In this document: positions 14,160 through 56,269 of the stretch, one piece after another
Numbering within the stretch: position 1 is the stretch's first letter
Layout of the letters: the number at the start of each line of letters is the position of its first letter
Source: Candidatus Bathyarchaeia archaeon
GTDB taxonomy: Archaea; Thermoproteota; Bathyarchaeia; Bathyarchaeales; Bathycorpusculaceae
Assembly (NCBI GenBank): GCA_038880555.1
Contig: JAVZRN010000002.1
Coordinates: 223,264-287,263 of the forward strand
Length of the DNA stretch: 64,000 nt
Direction: 5' to 3'
Notes under the pieces: model-generated
The model's database searches: none
The model's input: the letters and a program-made list of their open reading frames with translations, nothing else
Told to the model about the DNA's origin: nothing
Position numbers and translations under genes: made by a program

Positions 14160-14172
14160 GGAGGGTGCGCAC

Positions 14173-29435: not shown

Positions 29436-29634
29436 TTTCACCGCGGTCTTCCTCCGTGAAAGGCTTAATCTTGCCCTTGTCAATGCCGAAGACTTCGCTT
29501 AGGCGTTGTCTGCGTTGCTGGACGATGAAAAGCCTAATGGTTTCGTCTAGGGTTTGGACTCCAAGTTTTTGGCGTAGCTTCTCAAGCATCTTAAGTGTGG
29601 ACTTTGAAACCCTAATAGTTGTTGTTTCAACCAT
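29407..29634 (-). CDS. vapB: VapB-type antitoxin
   Basis: MVETTTIRVSKSTLKMLEKL is an N-terminal DNA-binding strand/helix. It overlaps the vapC start by 29 nt. Confidence 0.6.
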   Translation of the reverse strand: MVETTTIRVSKSTLKMLEKLRQKLGVQTLDETIRLFIVQQRRQRLSEVFGIDKGKIKPFTEEDRGENGGNSGSSC

Positions 29635-42058: not shown

Positions 42059-42314
42059 CGGAAAATTAGTAAGATGTTGGATGCACTCTTATGTATGAAG
42101 CTTTGAGAATTTCTGATAAAATTTAAATCTTGCCGTTCGTTTCCATGAGTGCAATAAAGAGCAGGTATAGCGTCCATGTTTCGCGCGTGCTACAAAGCGT
42201 ACATGTTGTCGTGGCACTTGGTTAAAGAAGGTGGTTAAAACGCAAGGGGTGAAGCATAATTATCGGGTTTAAGGAGGTAAGCATACGATTATTGAGCTGG
42301 CCGTTGCCTTTGTT

Positions 42315-42614
42315 TTGATTCTGGCTGTATCATCTATAATTTATTTGCTTGGACGTTTGTTGTCCGCTAAATCTATGCGTAGTGAAAATGGTAAATCTGC
42401 TTATGCTTGTGGTGAGAAGGTGAATTTTGATAAATTGAAAGTCAGCGTTTCTCATTATAGATATCTCATATACTTTGTGATTTTGGACTCGTCGGCGCTG
42501 TTGACGGCTTTTGCTGCATTGGCTATTCGCATGGCAAATGTTTTGTTCTTCGTAATTTACTTATTCATTGTCATTTTGTCTGGCTTGTTGCTTTTAGATG
42601 GAGGCGACCGTTAA
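42315..42614 (+). CDS. NuoA-like membrane subunit
   Basis: AYACGEKVNF...YLIYFVILDSSAL. The frame is open back to 42273 behind AAGGAGGT with only ATT/ACG codons, so the true start may be non-canonical (about 42288). Confidence 0.7.
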   Translation: MILAVSSIIYLLGRLLSAKSMRSENGKSAYACGEKVNFDKLKVSVSHYRYLIYFVILDSSALLTAFAALAIRMANVLFFVIYLFIVILSGLLLLDGGDR

Positions 42615-42637
42615 CGAGAAGAGCCAGCCTTTTAAAA

Positions 42638-43063
42638 TGGGCGAGGCTAAAATCACCTTGGGTTCTTCATTTTAATTCTGGAGCATGCAACGCTTGCGAT
42701 ATTGAGGTTGTCGCCCTTTTAACGCCTCGCTATGATGTTGAACGTTTTGGAATATTACTTGAACCTTCGCCAAGACATGCTGATGTTCTATTAACCACTG
42801 GTGTTGTCACCCGCCAATGTGCGGATAGATTGAGGCGTATTTATGAGCAGATGCCTGAGCCTAGATTTGTTGTTGCCATAGGTGCGTGTGCTTGTTCGGG
42901 CGGAGTGTTTGAAGGAAGTTACAATGTGATTGGCGGCGTTGATAAAGTCATTCCGGTCAATGTTTATATTCCGGGATGTCCACCAAAGCCAGAGGCGATA
43001 ATTGACGGTATTTTAAAATTGCTTGTTTCGCTCAAGGAGGCAAAGCATGTCGATAAACATTGA
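42638..43063 (+). CDS. [NiFe]-hydrogenase small subunit / NuoB-like (MbhJ-like)
   Basis: My own translation gives [38 protein letters not shown]...[12 protein letters not shown]...[10 protein letters not shown]...PGCPPKPEA. The ORF track lists only the last 77 codons (42830..), but the frame is open from ATG 42638. Confidence 0.85.
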   Translation, partial: [141 protein letters not shown]

Positions 43064-44636
43064 TGAGATTTTGAAAGCCTTAAGCGATGCGCTTAGGGAT
43101 AGGATACTCCAAACTAAATCTCTGCGTCCCGAAAAAACATGCATCCAAGTTGAGGCTGGAGCCCACAAAGACGCTGTAAAAGTTCTACTTAAACAGGATG
43201 GAAATGCAGGTATTTCCGCAATTACGGGCGTTGACCTCGGCGAAAAGATTGAGTTAATGTATCACATTCGCATCTGTGGCACAATAATTACCATCGGAAC
43301 CATTGTTTCAAAGGAAAATGCAAAGATTGAAAGCATAACGGACCTAATTCCTGGAGCGAATTTCCATGAAAGGGAAGTATCTGACCTTTTTGGCGTAACA
43401 TTCGAGGGACACCCAAACCCGAAGAGACTTATTCTTCCAGAAGACTGGCCGGAAAATGTTTTCCCGCTTAGAAAGGATGTCACAGCTGCAAATTTTCAGA
43501 GCAAAACACAGATTTCTGGGGCTTCAAAGGATCATGAGCGAGTTTCCAACGGTGAAAAGCTAGTAAACATTGTGTTAGGGCCTCAGCATCCTGCCTTGAT
43601 AGAGCCTGAAAAGTTTTCTTTGAAAGTTGACGGGGAAATTGTTAAGGAAGTTGCGCCTAGGATTGGCTATGTTCATAGAGGTATTGAGAAGGCTGCAGAA
43701 AGTCGCACTTACTTGCAGAATATTTACTTGGTTGAGAGAATATGTGGCATATGTAATGCTTGTCATGCTACCTGTTTTTGCCAGACGGTTGAGGCAATAA
43801 TGGGTGTGAACGTACCGCCTAGGGCTAGGTATTTGCGCACAATAATTTTGGAGTTGAATAGGATTCATAGTCACATGCTTCTTTTGGGTCATGCTGGCTT
43901 AGAAATTGGGTATGAAACCCTATTCCATTATATGTGGCGCGACAGAGAGCCAGTGTTAGACATTATGGAGGAGCTTACTGGCAATAGGGTTATCACATCA
44001 TTCATCACCATAGGAGGCGTTAGAAGAGACTTAAAAGAAGAGGCTATTTCAAAAATTAATGCGGGATTGGCAAGCTTAAAGAAGAAAATGAGTTTTTATA
44101 GGCAACTTTTTGAGAATGATTCAACATTAAAAATGCGAACAAGAGATGTTGGAGTCTTAAGCAAGCAAGACGCGTTAAAATTGTGTGTTGTTGGTCCTGT
44201 GGCGCGGGGGTCTGGTGTGGATATGGATGTTAGAAGGGATGAGCCATACGCAGCTTACAATGAAATACCTTTTAGGGTTATCACTTATGATGAAGGTGAC
44301 GCTTGGGCTAGGCTTATGGTTCGTTTAGGTGAGATTGTTGAAAGCATTAACATAATACAATATGCCCTAGAACATTTGCCAAGTGGCCCTTACAGAATCA
44401 AGGTGCCAAGGATTGTGCCAGCAGGTGAGGCTATTGGGCGTGTTGAAGCGCCTAGGGGGGAGTTGTTTTATTATGTGAAAAGTAATGGAACAGCGTATCC
44501 CGAACGTGTTAAGGTGCGCACTCCGACTTTCGCTAATATTCCAGCTTTCGTTAAGATTGCCGAGGGCGGTAATATTGCAGATGTGCCAGCAAGCTTTGTC
44601 AGTCTCGATCCATGTTTCTCATGCACAGATAGATAG
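43047..44636 (+). CDS. Fused NuoC-NuoD-like subunit = group-4 [NiFe]-hydrogenase large subunit with intact metal ligands
   Basis: The NuoC part is FHEREVSDLFGVTFEGHP...PLRKD. The large-subunit part has RICGICNACH (N-terminal CxxC) and DPCFSCTDR* (C-terminal CxxC, ending 3 residues later). The ATG 43047 follows AGGAGG. Confidence 0.9.
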   Translation: MSINIDEILKALSDALRDRILQTKSLRPEKTCIQVEAGAHKDAVKVLLKQDGNAGISAITGVDLGEKIELMYHIRICGTIITIGTIVSKENAKIESITDLIPGANFHEREVSDLFGVTFEGHPNPKRLILPEDWPENVFPLRKDVTAANFQSKTQISGASKDHERVSNGEKLVNIVLGPQHPALIEPEKFSLKVDGEIVKEVAPRIGYVHRGIEKAAESRTYLQNIYLVERICGICNACHATCFCQTVEAIMGVNVPPRARYLRTIILELNRIHSHMLLLGHAGLEIGYETLFHYMWRDREPVLDIMEELTGNRVITSFITIGGVRRDLKEEAISKINAGLASLKKKMSFYRQLFENDSTLKMRTRDVGVLSKQDALKLCVVGPVARGSGVDMDVRRDEPYAAYNEIPFRVITYDEGDAWARLMVRLGEIVESINIIQYALEHLPSGPYRIKVPRIVPAGEAIGRVEAPRGELFYYVKSNGTAYPERVKVRTPTFANIPAFVKIAEGGNIADVPASFVSLDPCFSCTDR

Positions 44637-44647
44637 GAGGATGCAGA

Positions 44648-45637
44648 ATGAGTTTTGATTTGGAGTTCCTGTTTCGTGTGTTGATTTTTCCAGGCTTCAC
44701 TTTCATTTTATTTTTCACGATGTTTTGCGATTGGGTTGAAAGAAAGATTGAGGCGCGGATGCAGAATAGGATGGGACCTACATATACTGGTCCATTTGGC
44801 GTTTTTCAACCATTTGCTGACTTTGTCAAGCTTTTGACTAAGGAGGACATTGTTCCATTTAATGTAAAAAATTTCGCTTTCAAATTCACTCCGATTTTCT
44901 CTTTCTCGATTTTTGTCTTCTCATTTGTCTTCTTGCCAATTGATGGGGCAAACATTATTTTTAATTCAAACTTTGAAGGTGACTTAATTATTGTTCTAAC
45001 ATTAGTTTCAATTGCCAATTTCTTTATTTTCCTTTCAGGGTGGTCTTCGATGAACCCTTACAGTGCAATAGGCGCTACAAGAGTTTTGACTCAGTTTTTG
45101 GGTTATGATATTCCTCTTTTCATTCTTGCATTGGCTCCAGCTTTTTTGGCTAAAAGTCTTAGCTTTTCAGTTATTGCTGCTAATCAGAATGTGCCATTTG
45201 TCTTCATGATTCCATGGGCTTTCGTGCTGTTTATTATTACGCTTCAAGCGGAGTTGGAGAAAGACCCATTTGATGTTCCGCACGCTGAGACGGAGATAGT
45301 TGGTGGATATGAAACTGAATATACAGGTAGAAGATTGGCTTTTCTTAAACTTGCTAAAGATGTGCAAATAGTGCTTGGAGCGGCCATAGTCGTTGAACTT
45401 TTCTTAGGCGGCCCTTACGGACCAACTTTTTATGGCCCATCTGCCTTTTGGTATACGTTGTGGTTTACGCTTAAACTGCTCGCGGTTGTGGCGCTTACAG
45501 AGTATTTGAAATGCGTTTTTGCGAGATTGCGTATCGATCAAGTGCTTGTTGTCAACTGGAAAGTGCTTCTGCCTTTGGCGTTTATTTCTCTTGCTGCGGC
45601 TGTTGGCGTGAGCTTGTGGTTTAACTTGTTGAGGTGA
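44648..45637 (+). CDS. NuoH/HycD-like membrane subunit
   Basis: ERKIEARMQNRMGPTYTGPFGVFQPFADFVKLLTKED. Confidence 0.85.
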   Translation: MSFDLEFLFRVLIFPGFTFILFFTMFCDWVERKIEARMQNRMGPTYTGPFGVFQPFADFVKLLTKEDIVPFNVKNFAFKFTPIFSFSIFVFSFVFLPIDGANIIFNSNFEGDLIIVLTLVSIANFFIFLSGWSSMNPYSAIGATRVLTQFLGYDIPLFILALAPAFLAKSLSFSVIAANQNVPFVFMIPWAFVLFIITLQAELEKDPFDVPHAETEIVGGYETEYTGRRLAFLKLAKDVQIVLGAAIVVELFLGGPYGPTFYGPSAFWYTLWFTLKLLAVVALTEYLKCVFARLRIDQVLVVNWKVLLPLAFISLAAAVGVSLWFNLLR

Positions 45638-45643
45638 AAGTGA

Positions 45644-46018
45644 ATGGCTAAGTTATCGCCAATTTTGAAGGAAGTGCTTGCTCACTTTTTCAAGAAGCCT
45701 GCAACTCGAAGATATCCAGAAGAGAAGCCTTATGTTCCCGTTGGTTTCCGGGGCAGGCAAATATTTGACATTAATTTGTGTATCAGTTGTGGGTTATGTG
45801 CTAGGGATTGTCCTGCAAAGGCTATTGAAATGGTTGAGGTTGATGGAAAGTTAAGGCCTCTTTTTCATCTGGACCGCTGTATATTCTGTTATCAGTGTGC
45901 TGAAAGTTGTCCCAGAAACGCTATTAAAAGTTCGGAAATTTTTGAGTTGGCCTCAACAAATAAATCCGATTTGGTTGTAAAGCCTAAAGCAAACAATGTG
46001 AGCGGAGGCTCTTTGTGA
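45644..46018 (+). CDS. NuoI-like 2x[4Fe-4S] ferredoxin subunit
   Basis: CISCGLCARDCP and CIFCYQCAESCP. Confidence 0.85.
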   Translation: MAKLSPILKEVLAHFFKKPATRRYPEEKPYVPVGFRGRQIFDINLCISCGLCARDCPAKAIEMVEVDGKLRPLFHLDRCIFCYQCAESCPRNAIKSSEIFELASTNKSDLVVKPKANNVSGGSL

Positions 46019-46019
46019 A

Positions 46020-46484
46020 ATGATTATTGAGCTGCTTGCTGTTGGATTGGTTGTTTCAGCTTGTTTGGCCATTTATCTTGATGAAGCAGTGTATTCTGTT
46101 GCTTCTTTGGCTTGCATGTTTGTTTTAATGGCTTTTTTGTATGCTTTAAATGATGCTTTGTTTGTAGCTGTTTTCCAGTTGGCTGTTGGTGCTGGAACTT
46201 TGGCTGTTCTCTTCTTGGCTGGCGAAATGTTAAGCGCGAAACCAGAAAAGGAGAAGCCCTTAAAGAAAATTTTTCCAGTTGCCTTGCTTGCAATTGTTTT
46301 ATCTCTTCCATCAATTTTCTTATCTGTTTCTGTTACGCCAGGTAATGTTTCTCCAAGTTTTTCTTTTGCTGATGCACTTTGGAATTTAAGAGCTATAGAC
46401 GTGATACTGCAGGGGTTGGTTATAATGACCGTTGCTCTGGGCATTGCAATAGTCCTACATGAGCGAAATGATGGTGAAAGCTAA
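46020..46484 (+). CDS. NuoJ/MbhD-E-like membrane subunit
   Basis: FVAVFQLAVGAGTLAVLFLAGEML plus a C-terminal MnhB-like helix (RAIDVILQGLVIMTVALG). Confidence 0.65.
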   Translation: MIIELLAVGLVVSACLAIYLDEAVYSVASLACMFVLMAFLYALNDALFVAVFQLAVGAGTLAVLFLAGEMLSAKPEKEKPLKKIFPVALLAIVLSLPSIFLSVSVTPGNVSPSFSFADALWNLRAIDVILQGLVIMTVALGIAIVLHERNDGES

Positions 46485-48064
46485 TGGATTACATAATTTT
46501 GTCGGTTGTTTTGCTTGCCGTTGGCATTTACGGCTTATTGACCAAGCGTCACCTTGTTAAAGTGTTAATTTCCATTGAAATTATTGCTGTGGCAGCGTCA
46601 ATGAATTTTGTGCTGTTAGCCTCTTCTTTGAATAGAACTTTAGGCGAAGCATTTCTGATACTTGCTTTTTCCACGGACACTTGCGTAACCGCCATAGTAT
46701 TAGCTTTGCTGGTTATAGTCGTCAAAAAGTATGGAACGTGCGACATTAGAAAGCTGGCAGAAATAGAGCAGAGTGTAGATAAGGAGCAGACAAAATTGAG
46801 GCTGAGCAGTGAAAGATTCTTTGAAGTAGCAAAATATTGGGTGTTGCCCTTAATTTTAGGCTCTATAATTGGCTTAGCCATATTCCTCCTTGTCTACATT
46901 TACAAACTGCTAAATTATGCGTCATTTATTATTGTAAACTGGAATTCTTCATTTCTTTTAGCCTCAACAATTGTTGCGCTCCTCGGAGGATATTTAACAA
47001 TAAGACTGTGGGCGGAAAATAAAGAGTGCGGTTGCGGAACAGAACTTGTAATTGAAAGATACCATTTCAAAAACGGCATTGTTAGCTTGAGAGATACCAT
47101 AAGCAGAACTTTGGCTTCTGCGATAACCATAGGTTTTGGTGGAAGCGCTGGATTAGAGGGACCAAGTCTTTTGTTAGGTGGAGGAATCTCTTCGTTTATT
47201 GCTAGAAGGCTAAAGTTGGATCAAAAAGATGTAAAAACACTGTTTCTGTGTGGAGCAGCAGCGGGATTTTCAGCGATCTTTAAGGCTCCATTGACGGGGA
47301 TATTATTTGCCCTTGAAATACCTTACAAGAGAGATGTTGAAACCGAGGTTTTTATTCCAGCGTCTATTGCTTCTGTTACCGCCTATTTTACGTCCGCCAT
47401 AACCCTTGGAACAGAAACCATTTTTCCAACTCCAACATTTATTATACCAACTCTTTCCACCCTTATGCATGCAATTTTTCTAGGAATCCTAGCGGCGTTA
47501 GTTGCGTTGGCATTCATGGAAACCCTTCAAAGAACAAACAGCATAAGCAAACGGCTTGCCAGCAGACTTCCAATGTGGCTTATGACCATATTTGCTGGAT
47601 TAATTCTCGGTGTCATAGGCTTGCTTTACCCTGAAGCGCTTGGGCTAGGTTACGATTTCATTCACAAAATCGCCATGACTGAATTAGGAGAATTAACTTT
47701 GACAAATTTGACCGCACTTTTAATTTTAAAAATTGTGGCCACAAGCGTAACACTGAATTTCGGTGGAAACGGGGGGCTATTCATTCCATCGCTTTATGTT
47801 GGCGGCGCACTTGGGCTCATTTACGCACAAACTTTGAACCTTGAGACGCCTGTTTTATATGTCATATTATCAATGGCTGCAGTGCTGGCTGCGACGAGCA
47901 AAAGCCTTTTGACAAGTATAACTCTGGTGGCTGAAACTATGGGTCCAAGCTTTATAGTCCCCACCGTTATTTCAGCTGTTGTCAGTTATTTTCTTACGGG
48001 AAGCAGATCACTATATAAAAGTCAACTTGTAAATAAATTGCAAGCAAGGCATGTGCAATGCTAA
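46484..48064 (+). CDS. In-frame fusion: NuoK/MnhC-like 3-TM module (about 100 aa) + ClC chloride channel/antiporter domain (about 420 aa)
   Basis: The N-terminus LLAVGIYGLLTKRHLVKVLISIEIIAVAASMNFV is NuoK-like. ClC motifs follow: GCGTE, GSAGLEGPS (gating Glu context), AAAGFSAIFKAPLTG and GGLFIPS. There is no stop between the two parts. Confidence 0.8.
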   Translation: MDYIILSVVLLAVGIYGLLTKRHLVKVLISIEIIAVAASMNFVLLASSLNRTLGEAFLILAFSTDTCVTAIVLALLVIVVKKYGTCDIRKLAEIEQSVDKEQTKLRLSSERFFEVAKYWVLPLILGSIIGLAIFLLVYIYKLLNYASFIIVNWNSSFLLASTIVALLGGYLTIRLWAENKECGCGTELVIERYHFKNGIVSLRDTISRTLASAITIGFGGSAGLEGPSLLLGGGISSFIARRLKLDQKDVKTLFLCGAAAGFSAIFKAPLTGILFALEIPYKRDVETEVFIPASIASVTAYFTSAITLGTETIFPTPTFIIPTLSTLMHAIFLGILAALVALAFMETLQRTNSISKRLASRLPMWLMTIFAGLILGVIGLLYPEALGLGYDFIHKIAMTELGELTLTNLTALLILKIVATSVTLNFGGNGGLFIPSLYVGGALGLIYAQTLNLETPVLYVILSMAAVLAATSKSLLTSITLVAETMGPSFIVPTVISAVVSYFLTGSRSLYKSQLVNKLQARHVQC

Positions 48065-49428: not shown

Positions 49429-49644
49429 GGTTATCAGCGATGCAGACTTTATAGCTCATAATAAAACTGTTTCGTTATTAATTGTGCAATTTTATGAGTA
49501 AAACTGCTTAATCTCCGCCTTATGCCAGACAAAATTTAAATTGTTGACTTTTATATCTCAAAAGGCTGGTTTAAAATGGGTTAGGAAGGCGTAAAACACG
49601 AGAGGCATACAAACGAAACTGAACGTTGCATTTGAAAAAGTGGG

Positions 49645-51684
49645 ATGATGAGTTTGTTTCCATATGCGCCTTGGCTCGTTTGGGCATTTCCAATTGTTTC
49701 CAGTCTGCTGGTTCCATTAATTGCACGTTTCAGCAAGAGAGCTAAAGATTACTTCGCCGTAGCCGTGTGTTTAATCGCCTTAATATTCGCTTTTTCCATG
49801 GTTCCCGACGTTTACTTTAACGTTTTGGAAAGCTCTAATTTGACAGTGTATTGGATTCCATCTTTAAGCATTAGCGCAGGTGTATATATTGACCCATTAA
49901 GCGTTTTGCTTGCATGTCTGGTTACGTTCTTCGGTCTTGTGATAACAGTTTATTCTTTGGGTTACATGGCTGGCGAGGAAGGCTTAACACGATATTACTT
50001 TTTCATGCTTCTCTTTATAGGCTCGATGACAGGTTTGGTTATGTCGGACAATTTCCTTCAAATGTTCATATTCTGGGAGATGGTTGGACTCTGTTCCTAT
50101 TCGCTTATTTCCTTCTGGTATAAACGCCCCGAGACAGTTCGTTCAGCCACCAAAGTTTTCCTCATGACTCGTGTAGGAGACGCTTGCCTCTTAGCGGGAA
50201 TATGCATCCTCTACGTAAACTTGGGCTCATTCTCCTTCTCTTACATTATAAATAACATAGGAAATGTGCCAATGCGGCATTTAACAGCAGCAGCCTTTCT
50301 AATGCTCGCCGGAGCTGTCGCAAAATCGGCTCAGCTTCCGCTTCACACATGGCTTTACAGCGCCATGGAAGCACCTACATCCGTAAGTGCGCTTCTGCAC
50401 TCTGCGACGATGGTTAAAGCAGGAGTTTACTTGATTGCCAGATTAATGCTCTTGTTTGGCGCTTTAACGGCTTTAATTCCCATGTGGTTGCCATCAATCC
50501 TTTGGATTGGCGTAATAACAGCGTTTATCGGCGCTACTTTGGCTTTATCTGCAACAGACATTAAGGGTGTGGCTGCTTACTCCACAATAAGCCAAATAGG
50601 TTTTATGTTTGCAGCTTTAGGCACAGCATCTTTCGTTCCATCGGCTGGCTGGTTTGCAAGCTTACTTCATCTAGTAAGTCATGCGCTCTTTCAAGGTCTT
50701 GACTTTCTCTTGATAGGCGGAATCATCCATGCAACAAAAACACGCGATATGCGATTGATTGGAGGATTAAGAAAGGCAATGCCTATAACATTTGCATTCG
50801 GCATTATTGTATTGTTAGCTCGCGCTGGAATACCTCCATTCATAAGCTTTTTCAGCAAAGAACTAATCTTCCAAAGCGTTCTATCGTCAGGAAACTTGCA
50901 TGCCGCGCTCATACTTTATGTTTCCACAGCAATTACGTTTGCCTACACGCTACGGGTTGTCACACTTGTATATTTGAGGGAGAAATCAGAGTATTTGAGT
51001 CAGATTCACGTGCATGAAGCGCCAAAAATAATGCTTTTCTCATCTGGAGTTCTCGCAGTTTTCTGCGTTATATTTGTCTTGTTTGGAAATGAAATTTCAC
51101 AATTCATGCATGCTAATGTGGAAATAGGCTTAGGTGAAGTGTTTAACCCGTCAACTTTGATTTTTCTCTTCACACTTCTGATGGGAGGATTTCCGGTGTA
51201 CCTTACATACTATAGGAAACTCTCGTTGCCAGAACAAATAAGGCCGTTGCGAGGTTCCATAAACAAAGTTTTGGAGAACGGTTACTTCTTTGACGCTCTA
51301 TATGAAAAGGTGATTCCTCGTGGGGTCTGGCTGCTTTCATCAAGTCTTAAGCGTGCGGAATCATCCTTTTTTGGACGGTTACCCCAATTTATCGCCAATG
51401 GTATTATACGATTTTTCAGAATTTTTTATGAGCATGTTGAAAAATCCTTCTTTAATCGTCTGCCTTATCTTTTTGCAAATGGAGTTATGAATGTGGCTCA
51501 TGGAACCCGGAAGTATTTAGACATTCTTGCCGACGAACTTTTATATATTGCAACTAACAAGACTCTGGCTTCAGCATCTAAAATAAGAAGAGTGCGGTCT
51601 GGCTCCTTAGAACATTATGTGGCAGCAGCCCTAATCGGCTTTTTAATAATCCTTATACTCATGATAGTTACAATGCTAAGATAA
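49645..51684 (+). CDS. NuoL-like antiporter subunit with a C-terminal lateral-helix region and terminal TM
   Basis: WEMVGLCSYSLISFW, GAVAKSAQLPLHTWL and a long amphipathic C-terminal segment followed by the last TM (AALIGFLIILILMIV). Confidence 0.85.
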   Translation: MMSLFPYAPWLVWAFPIVSSLLVPLIARFSKRAKDYFAVAVCLIALIFAFSMVPDVYFNVLESSNLTVYWIPSLSISAGVYIDPLSVLLACLVTFFGLVITVYSLGYMAGEEGLTRYYFFMLLFIGSMTGLVMSDNFLQMFIFWEMVGLCSYSLISFWYKRPETVRSATKVFLMTRVGDACLLAGICILYVNLGSFSFSYIINNIGNVPMRHLTAAAFLMLAGAVAKSAQLPLHTWLYSAMEAPTSVSALLHSATMVKAGVYLIARLMLLFGALTALIPMWLPSILWIGVITAFIGATLALSATDIKGVAAYSTISQIGFMFAALGTASFVPSAGWFASLLHLVSHALFQGLDFLLIGGIIHATKTRDMRLIGGLRKAMPITFAFGIIVLLARAGIPPFISFFSKELIFQSVLSSGNLHAALILYVSTAITFAYTLRVVTLVYLREKSEYLSQIHVHEAPKIMLFSSGVLAVFCVIFVLFGNEISQFMHANVEIGLGEVFNPSTLIFLFTLLMGGFPVYLTYYRKLSLPEQIRPLRGSINKVLENGYFFDALYEKVIPRGVWLLSSSLKRAESSFFGRLPQFIANGIIRFFRIFYEHVEKSFFNRLPYLFANGVMNVAHGTRKYLDILADELLYIATNKTLASASKIRRVRSGSLEHYVAAALIGFLIILILMIVTMLR

Positions 51685-51695
51685 GAGGCGAAAAA

Positions 51696-53174
51696 ATGCA
51701 AAACACACTTTTATTAACAATAATTTTGCCCGCATTGGCTGTTCCATTCGTTTATTTTTTAGGCAAAAAATCTCCTAAAAGTGCAGCCTTCCTAATAGCC
51801 TTACTATGCCTAATCAACATCGCAATTTTCTCTACAACTGTACCGACAATCCTAAACGGCGCAAACCACAAGTATATCGAATCTTACTACTGGATTCCGG
51901 TTCTCCACGCTTCACTCACACTTTTTGTTGATGGAATAAGCCTCTCAATGGCAATCATAACTCTAATACTCATTTTGACAGCGGCGCTCTTCTCAATAAA
52001 TTACATGCAAGAGAAGAAGGGACTAGCTGAATACTACACTCTCTTGACAATGCTCTCAATAGGACTCGTCGGCGTCTTCATAACATCAAACCTCATGCTA
52101 TTTTACTTCTGCTGGGAACTAATGCTTCTACCATCATACTTCATAATAGGCGGATGGGGCTACAGAGAACCATACAAAGCAGCCTTCAAATTCTTCATAT
52201 TCACCCACGCGGGTGCAGTCTTCGTCTTATTGGGCATAGGCGCAATATTCATGGTCACAGGCGACTTGGACATGTTCCAGGCGCAAACTGCGCTAATGAC
52301 AGCTAATCCAGAACTCGCCAAATGGATATTGCTATCTTTAACAGTTGGTTTCGCAGTTAAGATGGCTGCGGTTCCAGTTCACATGTGGTTGCCCGACGCA
52401 CATTCCGAGGCACCTGCACCCATGTCTGCATTATTAAGCGGCGTAATAATCAGCGCTGGTGCTTACGCAATACTACGTGTATCTCTAGGGACAGTTTTTC
52501 CAGCAGTTATGGCAACAGGTTTTGGAAACATGTTCCTACATGGATTAACTACTTTTGGAATAATATCAGCCTTTTTCGGCTCCTTAATCGCCTTGGTGGA
52601 AACTGACATAAAACGGATAATCGCCTATTCTAGCATAGCCCACATGGGCTATGTTCTCTTTGGGCTTTCACTCTTTCCATTCCAAGAACCCGTCACAGGT
52701 ACAGTCTTACACCTTGTGAATCATGCTGTAAGTAAAGGCTTATTCTTTTTGTCGGCGGGCGCTGTTATGAAACAGCTTGAGGTTCGCGATATACGTGAAA
52801 TGGGCGGGCTTGCGGGAAAAATGCCAATTACAGCTACGGTTTCTACAATAGCAGCGTTAAGTATTGCGGGAATACCACCATTTGCATGTTTTATGAGCGA
52901 ATTTTTGATATTTGTTGGAGCATTTCAAACAATCAAAATTGACAACTTTTATCTCATTCCAACAGCACTGATGCTTGTAGCCACAGTTTTGTCTCTAGCC
53001 TACGCTTTAAGATTTTTAAGCCACGTCTTCCTTGGCGAAACAAAACACGAAAAAATTTCCGATGCTCCCCTCTATATGAAGTTAGCCATGATTATTCTAG
53101 CTGTGCTCACAGTTATCCTTGGAGTATGGCCCACGTTCTTCATACAACTAATCTCAAGCGTAAGCTTTGTCTAG
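51696..53174 (+). CDS. NuoM-like antiporter subunit
   Basis: FYFCWELMLLPSYFIIG, FAVKMAAVPVHMWLPDAHSEAP. Confidence 0.85.
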   Translation: MQNTLLLTIILPALAVPFVYFLGKKSPKSAAFLIALLCLINIAIFSTTVPTILNGANHKYIESYYWIPVLHASLTLFVDGISLSMAIITLILILTAALFSINYMQEKKGLAEYYTLLTMLSIGLVGVFITSNLMLFYFCWELMLLPSYFIIGGWGYREPYKAAFKFFIFTHAGAVFVLLGIGAIFMVTGDLDMFQAQTALMTANPELAKWILLSLTVGFAVKMAAVPVHMWLPDAHSEAPAPMSALLSGVIISAGAYAILRVSLGTVFPAVMATGFGNMFLHGLTTFGIISAFFGSLIALVETDIKRIIAYSSIAHMGYVLFGLSLFPFQEPVTGTVLHLVNHAVSKGLFFLSAGAVMKQLEVRDIREMGGLAGKMPITATVSTIAALSIAGIPPFACFMSEFLIFVGAFQTIKIDNFYLIPTALMLVATVLSLAYALRFLSHVFLGETKHEKISDAPLYMKLAMIILAVLTVILGVWPTFFIQLISSVSFV

Positions 53175-53186
53175 TGAGGAACGCAG

Positions 53187-54683
53187 ATGATAGAGCTTTT
53201 GGATGCATCTTTACCAATAATCGCCTTCGTTTTGTTTTCTCTTTTAACGATTCCGGTTGTTAAAATTACTCGTAAAAAAGGAAGCGCGAAAAATGTTTTG
53301 ATTCTTTGTTGGTTCTTAACAATTTTCGTTATTGCCGGTCTGACTGTGGCGAACCTTGCACTGAAATATTATGCTGAACCATCCCCTCAGCCTTTTATAA
53401 ACCTGTCACTAATTGAAGGTTCTTCAACTATTTTCTCCAGCATGTTTTTGGTGGATGCGGTGTCAGTTTACATGGCGATAATTTTCACGGGCGTAGGCGC
53501 AGTTGTTACCGTATACAGCCTCTTTTTCATAGATTCTGATGAGGGGTTTTCAGAACGCTATTACGCTGTTATGTTGATGATTATTGGCTGCGTTATAGGA
53601 ACAGCCCTTGCTGGTGATTTATTAACGCTCTTCATTTTTTGGGAAGCAGCAGCCGCCGGCTCAAGCTTCTTAATGCTATACCAAAAAACAACAAAGTCAC
53701 TGCATGCCACGCTAAAGTATCTGACCATGATAATAATAGCTTCAGCTTTCATAATTTATGGACTTTCAGTGATTTACGCCCTTACAGGTTCGCTTAATTT
53801 TTGGGAGGTAAAACATGCATTGGCTTCTCTTGCGGATAAGCACTTAATCGAGATAGCATTTATTTTTATTGCAGCAGGCTACTCGATAGAAGCAGCTGTT
53901 GTGCCATTCCACATGTGGCTTCCAGACGCTTACACGGCAGCCCCAGCCCCTTCCTCAGCGTTTCTATCGGCGCTTGTTGATCAAGCAAGCTACTATGTAC
54001 TGCTTAGGGTGCTAATTTACATTTTAACGCCTCCAACAGTTCTGCCATGGACGTTTATGTTTGCAGTTCTCTCAGCATTAACTATGATTGTGGGCAACTT
54101 GCTTGCACTGACGGAAAAAAACGTTAAACGTTTAATAGCGTATATTTGCATTGCAGACGTAGGCTACAATCTTGTGGCAATAACAAGCGTGACATCACTC
54201 GGCATAATGGGGAACCTCTACTTTTTCCTTGCTGGTGGAATAACAACAGCCCTTGCATTTATGATCGTTGGAATCTTCAACAGCATGGGATTTAAAAACT
54301 TAGAGGATTTTTCTGGAGTAGGTAAAAGAATGCCGCTTACGAGTTTAGCCCTAATTTTAGCTGCTTTCTCATTCGCCGGAGTCCCGGTGTTTGCTGGTTT
54401 TATAGCAAAATACTTAGTGTTCACATCTGCCATAGGGGCAAACATGAGTTGGCTAGCCGTCATAGGTGTCTTGACCAGCGTAATCCAAGCTGCTTACTTG
54501 TTAAGGCTAATTAATTACATGTATGCTAAAAAACCAAAAGAGGAAAGCAAGGTCAAAGAACCAAAAAAGCTGCTTATACCAATTTTCATTCTTGCCGTTT
54601 CAATAGTTGTTTTAGGCATTTACCCAAATATAGTTTTAAATCTTATAGAGCCGGTCATAAAGCAATTACAGTTTATGCCCTAA
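53187..54683 (+). CDS. NuoN-like antiporter subunit
   Basis: LFIFWEAAAAGSSFLM, AGYSIEAAVVPFHMWLPDAYTAAP. Confidence 0.8.
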   Translation: MIELLDASLPIIAFVLFSLLTIPVVKITRKKGSAKNVLILCWFLTIFVIAGLTVANLALKYYAEPSPQPFINLSLIEGSSTIFSSMFLVDAVSVYMAIIFTGVGAVVTVYSLFFIDSDEGFSERYYAVMLMIIGCVIGTALAGDLLTLFIFWEAAAAGSSFLMLYQKTTKSLHATLKYLTMIIIASAFIIYGLSVIYALTGSLNFWEVKHALASLADKHLIEIAFIFIAAGYSIEAAVVPFHMWLPDAYTAAPAPSSAFLSALVDQASYYVLLRVLIYILTPPTVLPWTFMFAVLSALTMIVGNLLALTEKNVKRLIAYICIADVGYNLVAITSVTSLGIMGNLYFFLAGGITTALAFMIVGIFNSMGFKNLEDFSGVGKRMPLTSLALILAAFSFAGVPVFAGFIAKYLVFTSAIGANMSWLAVIGVLTSVIQAAYLLRLINYMYAKKPKEESKVKEPKKLLIPIFILAVSIVVLGIYPNIVLNLIEPVIKQLQFMP

Positions 54684-54739
54684 AATTTAGATTCGTATTT
54701 AAGCAAAGATTTCCTAATACAATTATGAAGGGTTAGGCC

Positions 54740-56269
54740 GTGCAGCCAAAGAACCATAAACTCATAGCGTTTAACGATTTGGAACGCATGATAATACAGC
54801 AGGGTTTTTGCACAGTATGCGGCGCATGCGAAGCTGCATGCCCTATCCATGCAATAAAAGTGGAACACGAAAAACCCCAGAGACTTTACGATTGCTCTGA
54901 ACATATAGATACATGCCCAATTTGCTACGACATTTGCCCCCATACTGACGCACTTATCTATGAAGCATTAAGGTTTGTTGCTGACGCACCGAAAAGAAGA
55001 GAAAACTTGGGTTACTACAGAGAAATTCTGCTTGCGCAGGCCGCTAATCCAAGCATAAGAGCTGCAACAAAAAGTGGAGGAGTCGTAAACGCGCTTCTTA
55101 ATTTTGCCATCAGTGAAAAGATAATTGATGGCGCCATAACTTCAAAAGCATCACCTGCAACATCCTTAAAGGCTAAGCCTTCCATAAGTCTTGCGCCGGA
55201 CGATATGCTCTCCGCTGTCGGCTCTAAAATTGTGCCTTCAGCCGTTGCACAAGCTTATGGACGTGCGGTTTTTGAACATGGCAAAACACATATAGCCTTC
55301 GTGGGCATACCATGCCACGTTCTCGGACTTCGAAAACTTGAAGCATGGCAACATAAAATTATAGATGGTTTAGAGATAATTATAGGGCTTTTTTGTCTAT
55401 GGGGTTTTTCATTAAGCACAGTGCTGGAATTTCTCTTAGATGAGTACCATATTGCTGTTAATGAAATTCAAAGTGTCGATTTGTCTGCAGATGCATACAT
55501 TGTAAACATGGAAAATCGTCAAATTCGAGTCCCCATCTCCAAAGTTAAATCTCATATCCTAAACCGTTGCAAAACATGTGTAGACTTCACCTCAGAATAC
55601 GCTGATTTAAGCATTGGCGGGGCAAGCCCATTAAAAGAATGGTCAATTGTAATTATCAGAACTAGAAAAGGTGAAGAGTTCTTTAACAAAGCTTTAACCA
55701 GCGGCATCATAATAACTAAGAATGTAGAAGAGGAACCACAAGCATTAGCTCACCTAATTCAATTGGCAGCACACAAAAGAAAAAGCGCGTTGCAAGAAAT
55801 GAAAACTATGAGAGAAAGAGGAGTATACGTTCCAGCAACCGCGGAACTCTTTGTTAGACCCAGACCAAGCGAATTCAGCCTCTTAGAAAGGGTTAACGTG
55901 GAACAAATTATGACAAAAAACGTGGTAACGTTGCCTCCAACCCTAACTATCAGCCAGTTTTTCAAAAAAATAGCTGAACATCACCATATAGGTTTTCCGG
56001 TAATAAACGAATCAGGCAAAATCATAGGAATAGTCACACTGCAAGATGCAATGAAAATTCCAGAAGAAAAGCGAAACAACGTTTCTATAGGTGAAATCTA
56101 CACAAAGAAACTGATAACAATTTACCCCGACAACTCTGTAGCCGAAGCCCTCGAAAAAATGGATAAACATAACGTTGGCAGACTTCTAGTGTTTGACAAA
56201 AATGACAAATTAGTAGGAATATTAACGAGAAGTGACATAATGCACTTAATAAGGAAAACCTTATATTAA
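54740..56269 (+). CDS. FrhB/FpoF-family (F420-hydrogenase beta-like) iron-sulfur flavoprotein fused to a C-terminal CBS pair
   Basis: CTVCGACEAACP...CPICYDICP ferredoxin motifs, an FrhB-like core (VGIPCHVLGLRKL, CKTCVDFTSEYADLSIGG), and two CBS units (IMTKNVVTLPP..., ITIYPDNSVAEALEKM...). Confidence 0.75.
   Translation: MQPKNHKLIAFNDLERMIIQQGFCTVCGACEAACPIHAIKVEHEKPQRLYDCSEHIDTCPICYDICPHTDALIYEALRFVADAPKRRENLGYYREILLAQAANPSIRAATKSGGVVNALLNFAISEKIIDGAITSKASPATSLKAKPSISLAPDDMLSAVGSKIVPSAVAQAYGRAVFEHGKTHIAFVGIPCHVLGLRKLEAWQHKIIDGLEIIIGLFCLWGFSLSTVLEFLLDEYHIAVNEIQSVDLSADAYIVNMENRQIRVPISKVKSHILNRCKTCVDFTSEYADLSIGGASPLKEWSIVIIRTRKGEEFFNKALTSGIIITKNVEEEPQALAHLIQLAAHKRKSALQEMKTMRERGVYVPATAELFVRPRPSEFSLLERVNVEQIMTKNVVTLPPTLTISQFFKKIAEHHHIGFPVINESGKIIGIVTLQDAMKIPEEKRNNVSIGEIYTKKLITIYPDNSVAEALEKMDKHNVGRLLVFDKNDKLVGILTRSDIMHLIRKTLY

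What the first reader, a model, noticed from the sequence alone, without database searches (positions are those of the whole stretch)
42273..56269. Complex-I gene order (A-B-CD-H-I-J-K / L-M-N) combined with an intact [NiFe] active-site signature and an FrhB-type module
The D-like subunit keeps both cysteine pairs of [NiFe]-hydrogenase large subunits: RICGICNACH and DPCFSCTDR. It ends three residues after the second pair, so no C-terminal extension needs an endopeptidase. The B-like subunit is MbhJ-like.

The operon nevertheless contains NuoA- and NuoJ-like subunits and three separate antiporter-like subunits, with a NuoL-type lateral helix, in the order typical of respiratory complex I/Fpo. 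It terminates in an FrhB/FpoF-family protein. This is the gene content expected for an intermediate between membrane-bound hydrogenases and Fpo/Nuo-type complexes. No hyp maturation genes are visible in the window.
Basis: partly seen in the sequence, partly recalled or inferred. Interest (0 to 1): 0.65.

Follow-up and report, generated by a model that had tools for sequence, protein, structure and literature searches.

The report
Bathyarchaeial complex-I-like hydrogenase with F420 module
This is the gene cluster for "Hfo", a complex-I-shaped membrane [NiFe] hydrogenase of Bathyarchaeia already described in 2021; what the Bathyarchaeia papers I could read did not report is an F420-type flavoprotein gene, fused to a CBS sensor, that sits beside the cluster in several lineages.

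Summary
Window 42273-56269 encodes NuoA-, B-, CD-, H-, I-, J-, K-like and L-, M-, N-like subunits, then an FrhB-family protein. The D part carries RICGICNACH and ends DPCFSCTDR-stop. All assessable relatives (about 60 loci) do the same.

Loh, Hervé & Brune 2021 (PMC7886697) described this cluster as "Hfo", an Fpo-like hydrogenase of subgroup 4g, with the same gene order, an hfoCD fusion and the same evolutionary reading. Two of their MAGs carry orthologues with D 65-66% identical.

New relative to the Bathyarchaeia papers I read:
- The FrhB protein (two-cluster ferredoxin domain, F420-reductase domain, CBS pair) lies next to Hfo in about 30 of 32 assessable metagenome loci, in two different placements. 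Those papers state that FpoF is absent.
- A 2025 paper proposed an FrhB-flanked group-4 hydrogenase in another archaeal class.

Best reading: an ion-translocating hydrogenase wired to F420 through FrhB-CBS. This is inferred, not shown.

ClC and ArsB-like transporter genes split the cluster between K and L. K and ClC are fused by a 1-nt deletion. hfoB has no canonical start codon; its start position is ACG. No hyp genes are in the window.

The parts
42285..42614 (+). hfoA (NuoA-like). The probable start is ACG at 42285, which lies 6 nt after GGAGGT. The first canonical start is TTG at 42315.
   Evidence: Pfam Oxidored_q4, E 9e-8. The start position aligns with ATG in L015 and GTG in L001.
42614..43063 (+). 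hfoB (NuoB/MbhJ-like small subunit). It has four Cys for the proximal [4Fe-4S] cluster: CxxC at 42680-42700, GACACSGG and PGCPP. The start is ACG at 42614, overlapping the TAA stop of hfoA.
   Evidence: Pfam Oxidored_q6, E 6e-34. There is no ATG/GTG/TTG in frame before 42830. ACG in the context TAACG occurs in 14 of 74 distinct loci.
43047..44636 (+). hfoCD, a fused NuoC-like and [NiFe] large-subunit/NuoD-like protein of 529 aa.
   Evidence: Pfam Complex1_30kDa, NiFeSe_Hases and Complex1_49kDa. It is 100% identical to P0001. The best PDB relatives are MbhL 6CFW_L (294 bits) and HycE 7Z0S_E (292 bits), then Nqo4 (247 bits).
43737..43766 (+). L1 [NiFe] motif, RICGICNACH.
   Evidence: It is conserved as RxCGICxxxH in all assessable relatives.
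44607..44636 (+). L2 [NiFe] motif, DPCFSCTDR, followed directly by the stop codon.
   Evidence: The tail length is zero in all Hfo relatives.
44648..45637 (+). hfoH (NuoH-like).
   Evidence: Pfam NADHdh, E 7e-86.
45644..46018 (+). hfoI (NuoI-like, 2x[4Fe-4S]).
   Evidence: Pfam Fer4 families and TIGR01971. The motifs are CISCGLCARDCP and CIFCYQCAESCP.
46020..46484 (+). hfoJ (NuoJ-like).
   Evidence: Pfam Oxidored_q3, E 5e-11.
46484..46795 (+). hfoK (NuoK-like). In this window it reads in frame into the ClC gene.
   Evidence: Pfam Oxidored_q2, E 2e-17. In L001, L002, L125 and L126, K is a separate 109-aa protein with its own stop. The window lacks one T in the run AAAATTT.
46796..48064 (+). ClC-type chloride channel/antiporter gene inserted after hfoK, starting at TTG 46796. 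It is restricted to the window's clade.
   Evidence: Pfam Voltage_CLC, E 1e-76. Its distribution is shown.
48061..49428 (-). ArsB/CitMHS-family permease gene on the opposite strand. It splits the cluster into hfoA-K(-clc) and hfoL-N-frhB.
   Evidence: Pfam ArsB, E 3e-76. It is present only in the window's clade.
49645..51684 (+). hfoL (NuoL-like antiporter subunit with a lateral helix and a C-terminal TM). The lateral helix carries an extra 28-aa repeat: 51361-51402 is repeated at 51442-51483.
   Evidence: TIGR01974 at 432 bits, above its cutoff. Alignment to NdhF covers residues 3-565. Length is 679 aa here against 651 aa in the strain of L125, whose DNA is 99% identical up to window position 51372.
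51696..53174 (+). hfoM (NuoM-like, with the NuoM-type Glu on TM12).
   Evidence: TIGR01972 at 337 bits, above its cutoff. Alignment to E. coli NuoM. Residue conservation across loci.
53187..54683 (+). hfoN (NuoN-like; the closest solved relative is the Mbs antiporter-like subunit).
   Evidence: Pfam Proton_antipo_M. 6U8Y_H at 177 bits. Glu and Gln occupy the canonical TM7 and TM8 Lys positions in 73 of 78 loci.
54740..56269 (+). frhB-CBS. It has an N-terminal 2x[4Fe-4S] ferredoxin domain, an FrhB-type F420-reductase domain (FAD plus [4Fe-4S]) and a C-terminal CBS pair. It starts 56 bp after hfoN.
   Evidence: Pfam FrhB_FdhB_N/C, Fer4 and CBS x2. PDB 8RIU_B at E 7e-43 over residues 12-381, and FrhB 3ZFS_C over residues 90-365. 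Adjacency to Hfo is conserved.

Best explanation
**What it is.** The window carries the Hfo (Fpo-like, subgroup 4g) membrane-bound [NiFe] hydrogenase cluster of an uncultured Bathyarchaeia archaeon. Its closest relatives are MAGs whose isolate names (DRTY, JZ, KM/Kamch) I read, from my own knowledge, as hot-spring sites.

**Inferred anatomy.** This is by homology to complex I, Mbh and FHL.
- HfoCD holds the [NiFe] site.
- HfoB holds the proximal [4Fe-4S] cluster and HfoI two more.
- HfoH, A, J and K form the coupling channel.
- HfoL, M and N are three antiporter-like ion-translocating modules, tied together by the HfoL lateral helix.

**The extra gene.** In this and several other Bathyarchaeia lineages a twelfth gene, frhB-CBS, belongs to the unit. 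I propose that its ferredoxin domain docks on the Fe-S arm. Its FAD/F420 domain would then exchange hydride with coenzyme F420. The enzyme would couple H2/H+ and F420/F420H2 to ion translocation:
- driving F420 reduction by H2 at low H2 pressure at the expense of the ion gradient, or
- conserving energy from F420H2-dependent H2 evolution.

The CBS pair would tune this according to adenine-nucleotide status.

**Shown versus inferred.** Shown: gene content, motifs, orthology to the published Hfo, and conserved adjacency of frhB-CBS. Inferred: [NiFe] insertion, ion pumping, physical docking of FrhB-CBS, use of F420, direction of electron flow, and the CBS ligand.

**Sub-confidences.** Hfo orthologue 0.9; functional ion-translocating hydrogenase 0.7; F420 coupling through FrhB-CBS 0.45.
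For: **Subunit identities.**

**[NiFe] site.** The four cysteines and the ...CxDR-stop ending are invariant across loci whose L subunits are only 46-92% identical.

**B subunit.** It has the CxxC-type cluster motif.

**Closest solved relatives of D.** MbhL and HycE score 294 and 292 bits, above Nqo4 at 247 bits.

**Orthology to published Hfo.** The gene order is the same and D is 65-66% identical in L064 and L077. Both are MAGs of Loh et al..

**Pump residues.** Glu-TM5, Lys-TM7 and Lys/Glu-TM12 are conserved in L and M, and Glu-TM5 and Lys-TM12 in N.

**FrhB-CBS adjacency.**
- Genome loci: it lies 38-209 bp downstream of hfoN, or 0.6-1.8 kb upstream of hfoA, usually on the same strand.
- Metagenome loci found with FrhB-CBS as query: about 30 of 32 assessable loci have it adjacent to Hfo.
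- The two placements argue for selection on linkage.

**Closest solved relative of FrhB-CBS.** It is the zeta subunit of the F420-reducing CODH (8RIU). That subunit has the same layout of ferredoxin domain plus F420-reductase domain, and it plugs an Fe-S enzyme into F420.

**Literature context.**
- Loh et al. note that the source of F420H2 for Mer is unknown in these organisms.
- An FrhB-flanked, expressed group-4 hydrogenase was proposed to oxidise F420H2 in Methanonezhaarchaeia.
Against: - There is no biochemical evidence for any 4g hydrogenase.
- hyp genes are absent from the window and from all 124 related loci. Maturation capacity in this genome is therefore untested.
- F420 biosynthesis genes were not examined.
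- The large soil and termite (Bathy-6-like) clade has no frhB-CBS within 5-7 kb of the cluster. The module is therefore not universal, and Hfo can presumably work without it.
- FrhB-family proteins can also act as soluble Fd:F420 oxidoreductases.
- In L007 and L111, FrhB-CBS also neighbours a second, compact group-4 hydrogenase cluster.
- The small H2/F420 potential gap sits oddly with three antiporter modules.
- In this window the cluster is split by a minus-strand gene, K is fused to ClC, and hfoA/B lack canonical start codons.
Confidence: 0.55

Rival explanations
1. Ferredoxin-only Hfo, as originally proposed. The 11-subunit core couples Fd(red)/H2 to the ion gradient. FrhB-CBS is a soluble partner that is merely co-regulated with it. 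It could be a Fd:F420 oxidoreductase like free FpoF/FqoF, or a subunit working with Hdr.
For: - Loh et al. propose Fd as the partner and suggest that FrhB may work with HdrABC.
- Many Hfo clusters lack a nearby frhB-CBS.
- In the 'upstream' arrangement the gene is separated from hfoA by a DUF1622 membrane protein gene and 0.6-1.8 kb.
- FrhB-CBS also neighbours another group-4 cluster in L007 and L111.
Against: - Seen from the FrhB-CBS side, about 30 of 32 assessable loci are adjacent to Hfo.
- Two independent placements keep the linkage.
- The N-terminal two-cluster ferredoxin domain is the part that anchors the homologous zeta subunit to its partner enzyme in 8RIU.
Confidence: 0.3
2. A respiratory Fpo-like complex. 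F420H2 would enter through FrhB-CBS and electrons would leave to a membrane or unknown acceptor at the D/H/B pocket. The conserved cysteines would not bind a working [NiFe] centre.
For: - Gene order and subunit set are those of Fpo/Nuo, and an FpoF-like module is present.
- NCBIfam NuoD (PRK06075) scores above its cutoff, at 381 against 360 bits.
- No hyp genes are nearby.
Against: - All four Ni-Fe cysteines plus the flanking R, H, D-P and R residues are invariant across deep divergence. FpoD and NuoD have lost them.
- B has CxxC, not the CC pair of NuoB.
- The FpoD model scores 336 bits against a cutoff of 600.
- D is nearer to MbhL and HycE than to Nqo4.
- Loh et al. found no methanophenazine pathway, and no quinone pathway was found in Bathyarchaeia.
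Confidence: 0.07
3. In this particular strain the cluster is decaying or inactive. It is split by transporter genes, K is fused to ClC, hfoA/B lack canonical start codons, and other genes in the window are frameshifted.
For: - The K-ClC fusion comes from a 1-nt deletion.
- The ZIP gene is frameshifted.
- hfoB has no ATG/GTG/TTG start.
- A minus-strand ArsB-like gene lies between K and L.
Against: - All catalytic and pump residues are intact.
- The ACG start recurs in 14 distinct loci from independent assemblies, always in the context TAACG.
- The ClC/ArsB insertion is shared by a clade whose hfo genes remain intact.
- Strains with 99% identical DNA have separate K and ClC genes, so the fusion may be an assembly error.
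Confidence: 0.05

Closest known systems
Hfo, the 'Fpo-like 11-subunit [NiFe] hydrogenase' of Bathy-6 Bathyarchaeia (Loh, Hervé & Brune 2021, PMC7886697); HydDB subgroup 4g
   Same: - Same class of organism.
- Same subunit homologues in the order A-B-CD-H-I-J-K-L-M-N.
- Same hfoCD fusion and the same L1/L2 motifs.
- Orthologues in two MAGs of that study have D 65-66% identical.
   Different: - A conserved frhB-CBS gene is attached here, whereas the paper states that the F420 module is absent.
- ClC and ArsB-like genes are inserted between K and L.
- It belongs to a different lineage: its closest relatives are MAGs with DRTY, JZ and KM/Kamch isolate names, which I take to be hot-spring sites.
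- The start codons of hfoA and hfoB are ACG.
Fpo, the F420H2:methanophenazine oxidoreductase of Methanosarcinales (FpoABCDHIJKLMN plus FpoF and FpoO)
   Same: Same gene order for the 11 core subunits. There is also a peripheral FrhB-family flavoprotein with an N-terminal two-cluster ferredoxin domain, as in FpoF.
   Different: - FpoD lacks the Ni-Fe cysteines, whereas here they are intact.
- The FpoD, FpoF, FpoH and FpoL NCBIfam models all score far below their cutoffs.
- The FrhB protein here carries a CBS pair.
- No FpoO was seen.
Mbh (group 4d) of Pyrococcus furiosus, PDB 6CFW, and FHL (group 4a) of E. coli, PDB 7Z0S
   Same: These are the closest solved relatives of the catalytic subunit (294 and 292 bits). 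They share the CxxC-type small subunit, and the large subunit aligns to the C-terminus of the deposited MbhL chain.
   Different: - Mbh has one antiporter-like subunit plus an Mrp-type Na+ module, and has no NuoA, NuoJ or NuoL-type lateral helix.
- Here there are three antiporter-like subunits in complex-I order and no Mrp small subunits.
FrhB-flanked group-4 [NiFe] hydrogenase 'Ehi' of Methanonezhaarchaeia strain YNP3N (Sci Adv 2025, PMC12700198)
   Same: It is a membrane-bound group-4 hydrogenase with an adjacent frhB gene, proposed to link F420H2 to H2.
   Different: - It is in a different class of Thermoproteota.
- I could not see its subunit composition or its sequence relationship to Hfo.
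- No CBS fusion is mentioned.
Zeta subunit of the F420-reducing CODH/ACDS and the F420-reductase subunit of Fwd in Ca. Ethanoperedens (PDB 8RIU and 8RJA; PMC11493965)
   Same: These are the best solved matches to the FrhB part (E 7e-43). They have the same layout of ferredoxin domain (2x[4Fe-4S]) plus F420-reductase domain (FAD plus [4Fe-4S]). They set a precedent for an FrhB module that rewires an Fe-S enzyme from ferredoxin to F420.
   Different: The partner enzyme differs: CODH or Fwd there, a membrane hydrogenase here. The C-terminus there is a dimerisation extension, whereas here it is a CBS pair.

Membership tests
Group 4 membrane-bound [NiFe] hydrogenase | Large subunit with an L1 motif (RxCGxCxxxH) and an L2 motif (DPCxxCxxR/H), giving four Ni-Fe cysteines. 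| tested here: met
   RICGICNACH at 43737-43766 and DPCFSCTDR at 44607-44633. The Pfam NiFeSe_Hases N-terminal region matches at E 6e-12.
Group 4 membrane-bound [NiFe] hydrogenase | Small subunit with a four-Cys proximal [4Fe-4S] site of the CxxC type, not the CC pair of NuoB. | tested here: met
   [15 protein letters not shown] and PGCPP in HfoB. The motif distinction itself is from established knowledge.
Group 4 membrane-bound [NiFe] hydrogenase | Hyp maturation machinery is present in the genome. | not testable with these tools
   No hyp genes are in the window or in 124 related loci. Whole genomes could not be scanned.
Group 4 membrane-bound [NiFe] hydrogenase | H2 evolution or uptake activity. 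| not testable with these tools
   This needs an experiment. No 4g enzyme has been characterised.
Hfo (Fpo-like hydrogenase, subgroup 4g) of Bathyarchaeia | Homologues of the 11 Fpo/Nuo core subunits in the order A-B-C-D-H-I-J-K-L-M-N, with C and D fused. | tested here: met
   In this clade the order is kept but is interrupted by ClC and ArsB-like genes between K and L.
Hfo (Fpo-like hydrogenase, subgroup 4g) of Bathyarchaeia | Orthology to the clusters in the MAGs in which Hfo was defined. | tested here: met
   L064 (WRJX, Nt197P4_bin22) and L077 (WRGM, Nc150P4_bin1) have the same order, with D 65-66% and L 53% identical.
Hfo (Fpo-like hydrogenase, subgroup 4g) of Bathyarchaeia | HydDB or phylogenetic placement of the large subunit in subgroup 4g. 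| not testable with these tools
   Neither HydDB nor reference sets for 4e-4i are available here. Only proxy evidence exists: PDB bit scores and orthology to published members.
Hfo (Fpo-like hydrogenase, subgroup 4g) of Bathyarchaeia | The F420 input module (FpoF/FpoO) is absent, as the family was described. | tested here: not met
   An FrhB/FpoF-family gene follows hfoN by 56 bp and is conserved in this clade.
Fpo (F420H2:methanophenazine oxidoreductase) | FpoD without Ni-Fe cysteines, and subunits that reach the NCBIfam Fpo cutoffs. | tested here: not met
   The cysteines are present. Scores against cutoffs are FpoD 336/600, FpoH 212/475, FpoL 304/1050 and FpoF 104/475 bits.
Respiratory complex I (Nuo/Nqo) | A NuoEFG NADH module, a CC motif in NuoB, and a quinone pocket in NuoD. 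| tested here: not met
   None of the ORFs scanned in the window has NuoE/F/G domains. B has CxxC. D keeps the Ni-Fe ligands.
Mbh (group 4d, Mrp-linked) | Mrp-type small subunits (MbhA-G) and a single antiporter-like subunit. | tested here: not met
   There are three antiporter-like subunits plus NuoA, J and K, and no Mrp small-subunit domains.
FrhB/FpoF family of F420-reactive flavoproteins | FrhB_FdhB_N and _C domains, with the cluster cysteines and the FAD/F420 region aligned end to end. | tested here: met
   Pfam E 7e-13 and 4e-33. Residues 90-365 align to 3-280 of the 281-residue M. marburgensis FrhB. F420 binding itself was not tested.

The most novel reading that the evidence does not exclude
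In several Bathyarchaeia lineages Hfo is a twelve-subunit enzyme whose physiological partner is coenzyme F420, not only ferredoxin. It would be a complex-I-shaped, ion-translocating H2:F420 oxidoreductase. At environmental H2 pressures it would use the membrane potential to make F420H2 for the archaeal Wood-Ljungdahl pathway; in the reverse direction it would conserve energy while venting F420H2 as H2. A CBS pair would set its activity according to cellular adenylate status. This would supply the 'missing' F420H2 source noted for these organisms. It would also be a living example of the hydrogenase-to-Fpo transition with the F module already in place.
Probability: 0.35. Interest if true: 0.7.

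Novelty: new variant of a known kind. Interest (0 to 1): 0.4.

Why it matters
The core finding is not new. It is a hydrogenase active site inside a full complex-I/Fpo gene set, and it already serves in the literature as a candidate link between energy-converting hydrogenases and respiratory complex I.

The added value is the evidence that an FpoF-like, F420-type module with a CBS sensor is a conserved partner of this complex in several Bathyarchaeia clades. The Bathyarchaeia genomics papers I could read state that the module is missing.

If the module docks on the complex, three things follow:
- The predicted electron carrier and energetics of a very abundant sediment and hot-spring archaeal group would change.
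- There would be an answer to where their F420H2 comes from.
- The Fpo architecture (F module plus 11 core subunits) would have existed with a [NiFe] site still in place, which bears on the order of events in complex I evolution.

The recurrent ACG at the hfoB start position is a separate small lead on translation initiation in these archaea.

Tried and rejected
1. **A +1 frameshift in hfoB.** I first read hfoB as frameshifted in the AAAA run near 42650. I rejected this because the conserved WARLKSPW N-terminus lies in the main frame in all loci, and the aligned start position is ACG.
2. **RNA families.** An Rfam scan of the window found nothing.
3. **hyp genes.**
   - Motif scans for HypB/C/D/E/F-like signatures in the window and in 1.9 Mb of related loci gave only generic P-loop hits.
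   - I tried to read hyp/Hfo co-occurrence from Supplementary Table 2 of Loh et al. The stored text is cut before the Hfo-positive MAGs.
4. **Repeat in hfoL.** Tandem Repeats Finder found nothing at DNA level for the 28-aa repeat. The repeat is visible only at protein level.
5. **A failed alignment.** One align_proteins call failed on wrong coordinates and was replaced by a script.
6. **Literature.** Searches found no paper describing an FrhB/FpoF gene next to Hfo in Bathyarchaeia, and none on ACG start codons in archaea. The library holds open-access papers only.
7. **Steps not run.** Structure prediction and fold search were not run, because no multimer prediction is available and the sequence-level PDB matches were already unambiguous.

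Full report
**Observation**

The region 42273-56269 holds, on the + strand, ORFs with clear matches to the core subunits of complex I and the energy-converting hydrogenases:
- NuoA-like (Oxidored_q4).
- NuoB-like (Oxidored_q6, E 6e-34).
- A fused C-D protein of 529 aa (Complex1_30kDa, NiFeSe_Hases, Complex1_49kDa).
- NuoH-, NuoI- (two 4Fe-4S motifs), NuoJ- and NuoK-like subunits.
- Three antiporter-like subunits. They best match NuoL (TIGR01974, 432 bits, above cutoff), NuoM (TIGR01972, 337 bits, above cutoff) and NuoN.
- A 509-aa protein with FrhB_FdhB_N/C domains.

The D part contains RICGICNACH (43737-43766). It ends DPCFSCTDR (44607-44633), directly followed by the stop codon.

The B subunit has the CxxC-type cluster motif of hydrogenase small subunits (GACNACD), plus GACACSGG and PGCPP.

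The L subunit aligns to cyanobacterial NdhF through the YFFDxLYE start of the lateral helix. It ends with a C-terminal transmembrane helix.

These are HMM matches at E 1e-8 to 1e-86, so chance is not an issue.

1. The FrhB protein has an N-terminal two-cluster ferredoxin domain and a C-terminal pair of CBS domains.
2. Two unrelated genes lie between K and L:
   - a ClC chloride channel/antiporter gene (46796-48064);
   - an ArsB/CitMHS-type permease gene on the minus strand (48061-49428).
   Together they split the cluster into hfoA-K(-clc) and hfoL-M-N-frhB.
3. In this window K reads in frame into ClC.
   - Relatives with 90-100% identical HfoCD have a separate 109-aa K with its own stop, overlapping the TTG start of ClC.
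   - The window lacks one T in the run AAAATTT.
   - The fusion is a 1-nt deletion or an assembly error.
4. hfoB has no ATG/GTG/TTG before codon 73.

**Whose genome, and how common**

The HfoCD protein is 100% identical to an NCBI protein from a "Candidatus Bathyarchaeia archaeon" MAG. It has thousands of relatives at 70-91% identity, nearly all labelled Bathyarchaeia.

A scan of one genome per species returned 80 loci with the cluster, almost all Bathyarchaeia/Bathyarchaeota MAGs. The closest carry isolate names such as DRTY, JZ and KM/Kamch, which I read as hot-spring sites.

tblastn mapping shows the order A-B-CD-H-I-J-K-L-M-N in essentially all loci. Every D subunit that is covered and intact keeps both cysteine pairs and ends at the arginine of L2.

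**Already described**

[quoted passage not shown] They did the following:
- named it Hfo;
- classified it with HydDB;
- showed the L1/L2 motifs;
- noted sister clusters in Ca. Methanomethylicus and Pyrodictium delaneyi;
- argued that it "closes the evolutionary gap" between hydrogenases and complex I.

Their supplement already lists "hfoCD". Loci L064 and L077 belong to MAGs of that study (WGS prefixes WRJX and WRGM). They carry the same cluster, with D 65-66% identical to the window's.

**Position relative to solved enzymes**

The CD protein scores highest against P. furiosus MbhL (6CFW_L, 294 bits) and E. coli HycE (7Z0S_E, 292 bits). T. thermophilus Nqo4 scores 247 bits and MbsL 204 bits. 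NCBIfam's generic NuoD model passes its cutoff, but all the Fpo models fall far short.

The pump residues, from alignments to solved structures and conservation across loci:
- **HfoL** keeps Glu-TM5, Lys-TM7, His/Lys-TM8 and Lys-TM12 in 80 of 80 sequences.
- **HfoM** has Glu-TM5 and Lys-TM7 and, in most sequences, the NuoM-type Glu on TM12 (75 of 95) and a Lys on TM11 (75 of 95). The set includes duplicated M copies.
- **HfoN** has Glu and Gln at the canonical TM7 and TM8 lysine positions in 73 of 78 loci. The Glu is shared with its best solved match, the Mbs subunit 6U8Y_H.

**The FrhB-CBS gene is a conserved partner**

*Genome loci.* The gene lies 38-209 bp downstream of hfoN in the window's clade and a few others. 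In other clades it lies 0.6-1.8 kb upstream of hfoA, usually on the same strand. In the upstream loci I examined (L096, L120) a DUF1622 membrane-protein gene sits between them.

*Metagenome contigs.* I searched them with FrhB-CBS as the query.
- 42 loci were returned, at 44-88% identity.
- About 30 of the 32 with enough flanking DNA have the Hfo cluster beside the gene.
- One (L111) has the gene after a different, compact group-4 cluster.

*Where it is absent.* The large soil and termite clade, which includes the MAGs of Loh et al., has no such gene within 5-7 kb.

*The family.* It has about 470 members at E ≤ 1e-20. Those listed are about 510 aa with the CBS pair and, where named, are Bathyarchaeia.

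*Closest solved relative.* It is the zeta subunit of the F420-reducing CODH of Ca. Ethanoperedens (8RIU_B; E 7e-43 over residues 12-381).
- That subunit has the same plan of ferredoxin domain plus F420-reductase domain.
- It anchors through its ferredoxin domain.
- The F420-reductase part of the window's protein aligns end to end with M. marburgensis FrhB.

*Literature.*
- Two Bathyarchaeia papers state that FpoF/FpoFO are absent.
- Loh et al. note orphan FrhB genes and an unknown source of F420H2.
- A 2025 paper on Methanonezhaarchaeia describes an expressed group-4 hydrogenase "flanked by frhB" and proposes that it oxidises F420H2.

The idea therefore has a precedent in another class, but I found none for Hfo or Bathyarchaeia.

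**Mechanism**

*Shown.* Gene content, motifs, orthology and linkage.

*Inferred by homology.*
- A peripheral arm with [NiFe] (CD), a proximal cluster (B) and two clusters (I).
- A membrane arm with H/A/J/K and three antiporter-like modules clamped by the HfoL helix.

*Proposed.* FrhB-CBS docks by its ferredoxin domain on the Fe-S arm, as FpoF does on Fpo and zeta does on CODH. It would connect F420/F420H2 to the [NiFe] site.

*Energetics (from my own knowledge).* At the low H2 pressures of sediments and springs, the H+/H2 couple is more positive than F420.
- A gradient-driven enzyme could therefore make F420H2 from H2.
- In the opposite direction it could conserve a little energy.

*CBS pair.* It would give nucleotide-dependent control.

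Confidence is about 0.9 for the Hfo orthologue, 0.7 for a working ion-translocating hydrogenase, and 0.45 for F420 coupling through FrhB-CBS.

*Main rival (0.3).* Ferredoxin is the partner of the core enzyme, and FrhB-CBS is a co-regulated soluble Fd:F420 oxidoreductase or works with another enzyme.

*Minor rivals.* A respiratory Fpo-like function is unlikely, given the invariant Ni-Fe ligands and the CxxC small subunit. Decay of the cluster in this strain is also unlikely, because all functional residues are intact.

**Limits**

- hyp genes are not in the window or in any of the 124 related loci. I could not scan whole genomes.
- HydDB and reference sets for 4e-4i were not available.
- No multimer modelling was possible.
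- The literature library covers open-access papers only.

**Side observations**

*ACG at the hfoB and hfoA start positions.*
- In 14 of 74 distinct hfoB upstream sequences, the codon aligned with the ATG of the other loci is ACG.
- It is always in the context TAACG, where TAA is the hfoA stop. Most of the other loci have TAATG.
- Sister loci differ only by ATG versus ACG.
- ACG makes up only 20% of Thr codons in hfoB.
- The hfoA start position in the window is also ACG, where close relatives have ATG or GTG.
- This points to ACG-initiated or coupled re-initiation.

*HfoL length polymorphism.* The lateral helix of HfoL carries an extra 28-aa repeat in the window, L003 and L007. The repeat is absent from L125, whose DNA is 99% identical up to window position 51372. 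Identity to that strain drops from 99.3% to 93% at about the repeat.

*Provirus and variable upstream region.*
- The window also holds a head-tail provirus at about 11-35 kb.
- An integrase gene lies just upstream of hfoA.
- The region upstream of hfoA differs among near-identical strains.

**Verdict**

The conserved FrhB-CBS partner makes this a variant of a known kind, of moderate interest.

Noticed in passing
window 42614-42616 (hfoB) and 42285-42287 (hfoA); loci L001, L003, L005, L007, L009, L011, L015, L016, L019, L035, L048, L058, L100, L125: The hfoB start position is ACG, in the context TAACG overlapping the hfoA stop, in 14 of 74 distinct loci. It is never another Thr codon, although ACG is only 20% of Thr codons in hfoB. 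Sister loci have ATG at the same position. The window's hfoA start position is also ACG where relatives have ATG or GTG. This suggests ACG-initiated or coupled re-initiation in Bathyarchaeia.
   Followed up: partly
window 46484-48064: NuoK-like and ClC reading frames are fused by loss of one T in the run AAAATTT at about 46796. Four close relatives (L001, L002, L125, L126) have separate, overlapping genes. This is either an assembly error or a very recent mutation.
   Followed up: yes
window 46796-49428; L003, L005, L006, L015, L084-L091, L115, L123: The K/L junction of the cluster is an insertion site for transporter genes in the window's clade only. The content varies: ClC plus ArsB-like, ClC alone (fragmented in L005), or ArsB-like alone. 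ClC overlaps the hfoK stop, so it is probably co-translated with the hfoA-K unit.
   Followed up: partly
window 51361-51483 (HfoL residues 573-613): There is a 28-aa repeat (SFFGRLPQFIANG... / SFFNRLPYLFANG...) inside the lateral helix. It gives 677-679 aa in the window, L003 and L007, against 651 aa in L125 and L011. Nucleotide identity to L125 drops from 99.3% to 93% near this point (about 51372-51444), which suggests a recombination breakpoint.
   Followed up: partly
window 53187-54683 (HfoN), residues E235 and Q266: The N-like antiporter subunit has Glu and Gln where NuoN has the TM7 and TM8 lysines. This holds in 73 of 78 loci. The Glu is shared with the Mbs subunit 6U8Y_H, which is its best solved match.
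   Followed up: partly
L007 11986-16941; L111 1-3141: FrhB-CBS also neighbours a second, compact Ech-like group-4 hydrogenase cluster. That cluster has a small subunit, a large subunit with Ni-Fe motifs and a 26-aa C-terminal extension, NuoH-like and NuoI-like genes, and one antiporter-like gene on the opposite strand.
   Followed up: partly
L096 9643-10116; L120 9611-10078: In these two loci with the 'upstream' arrangement, a conserved DUF1622 membrane-protein gene of about 155 aa sits between frhB-CBS and hfoA on the same strand. It could be an extra subunit.
   Followed up: partly
window about 11000-35000 and 41411-42058: There is a head-tail (HK97-type) provirus of an archaeon: capsid 14056-15126, portal 15670-16893, tail tube 23424-24293, gp10-like 24603-25184, tail protein 25731-27350 and terminase 33319-34683. 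GC content is higher (0.50-0.53) at 12-18 kb. A short integrase gene lies just upstream of hfoA. The DNA upstream of hfoA differs completely among strains with identical HfoCD; L126 and L001 carry integrase genes there, so it looks like an integration hotspot.
   Followed up: partly
window 58151-58907 and 56761-57321: A ZIP metal transporter gene is split across two frames. An ABC ATPase ORF ends in out-of-frame sequence. Together with the K-ClC fusion, this suggests indel errors or pseudogenes in this assembly.
   Followed up: partly
window 23-1153, 37377-40108, 1858-4439, 6166-10086, 28586-29483: Other content: three TldD/PmbA-type peptidase genes, anaerobic ribonucleotide reductase NrdD with NrdR, a 1306-aa PAS/GAF histidine kinase with a response regulator, and a ParE toxin and a PIN-domain gene. 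No tRNA or other Rfam family occurs anywhere in the 64 kb.
   Followed up: no
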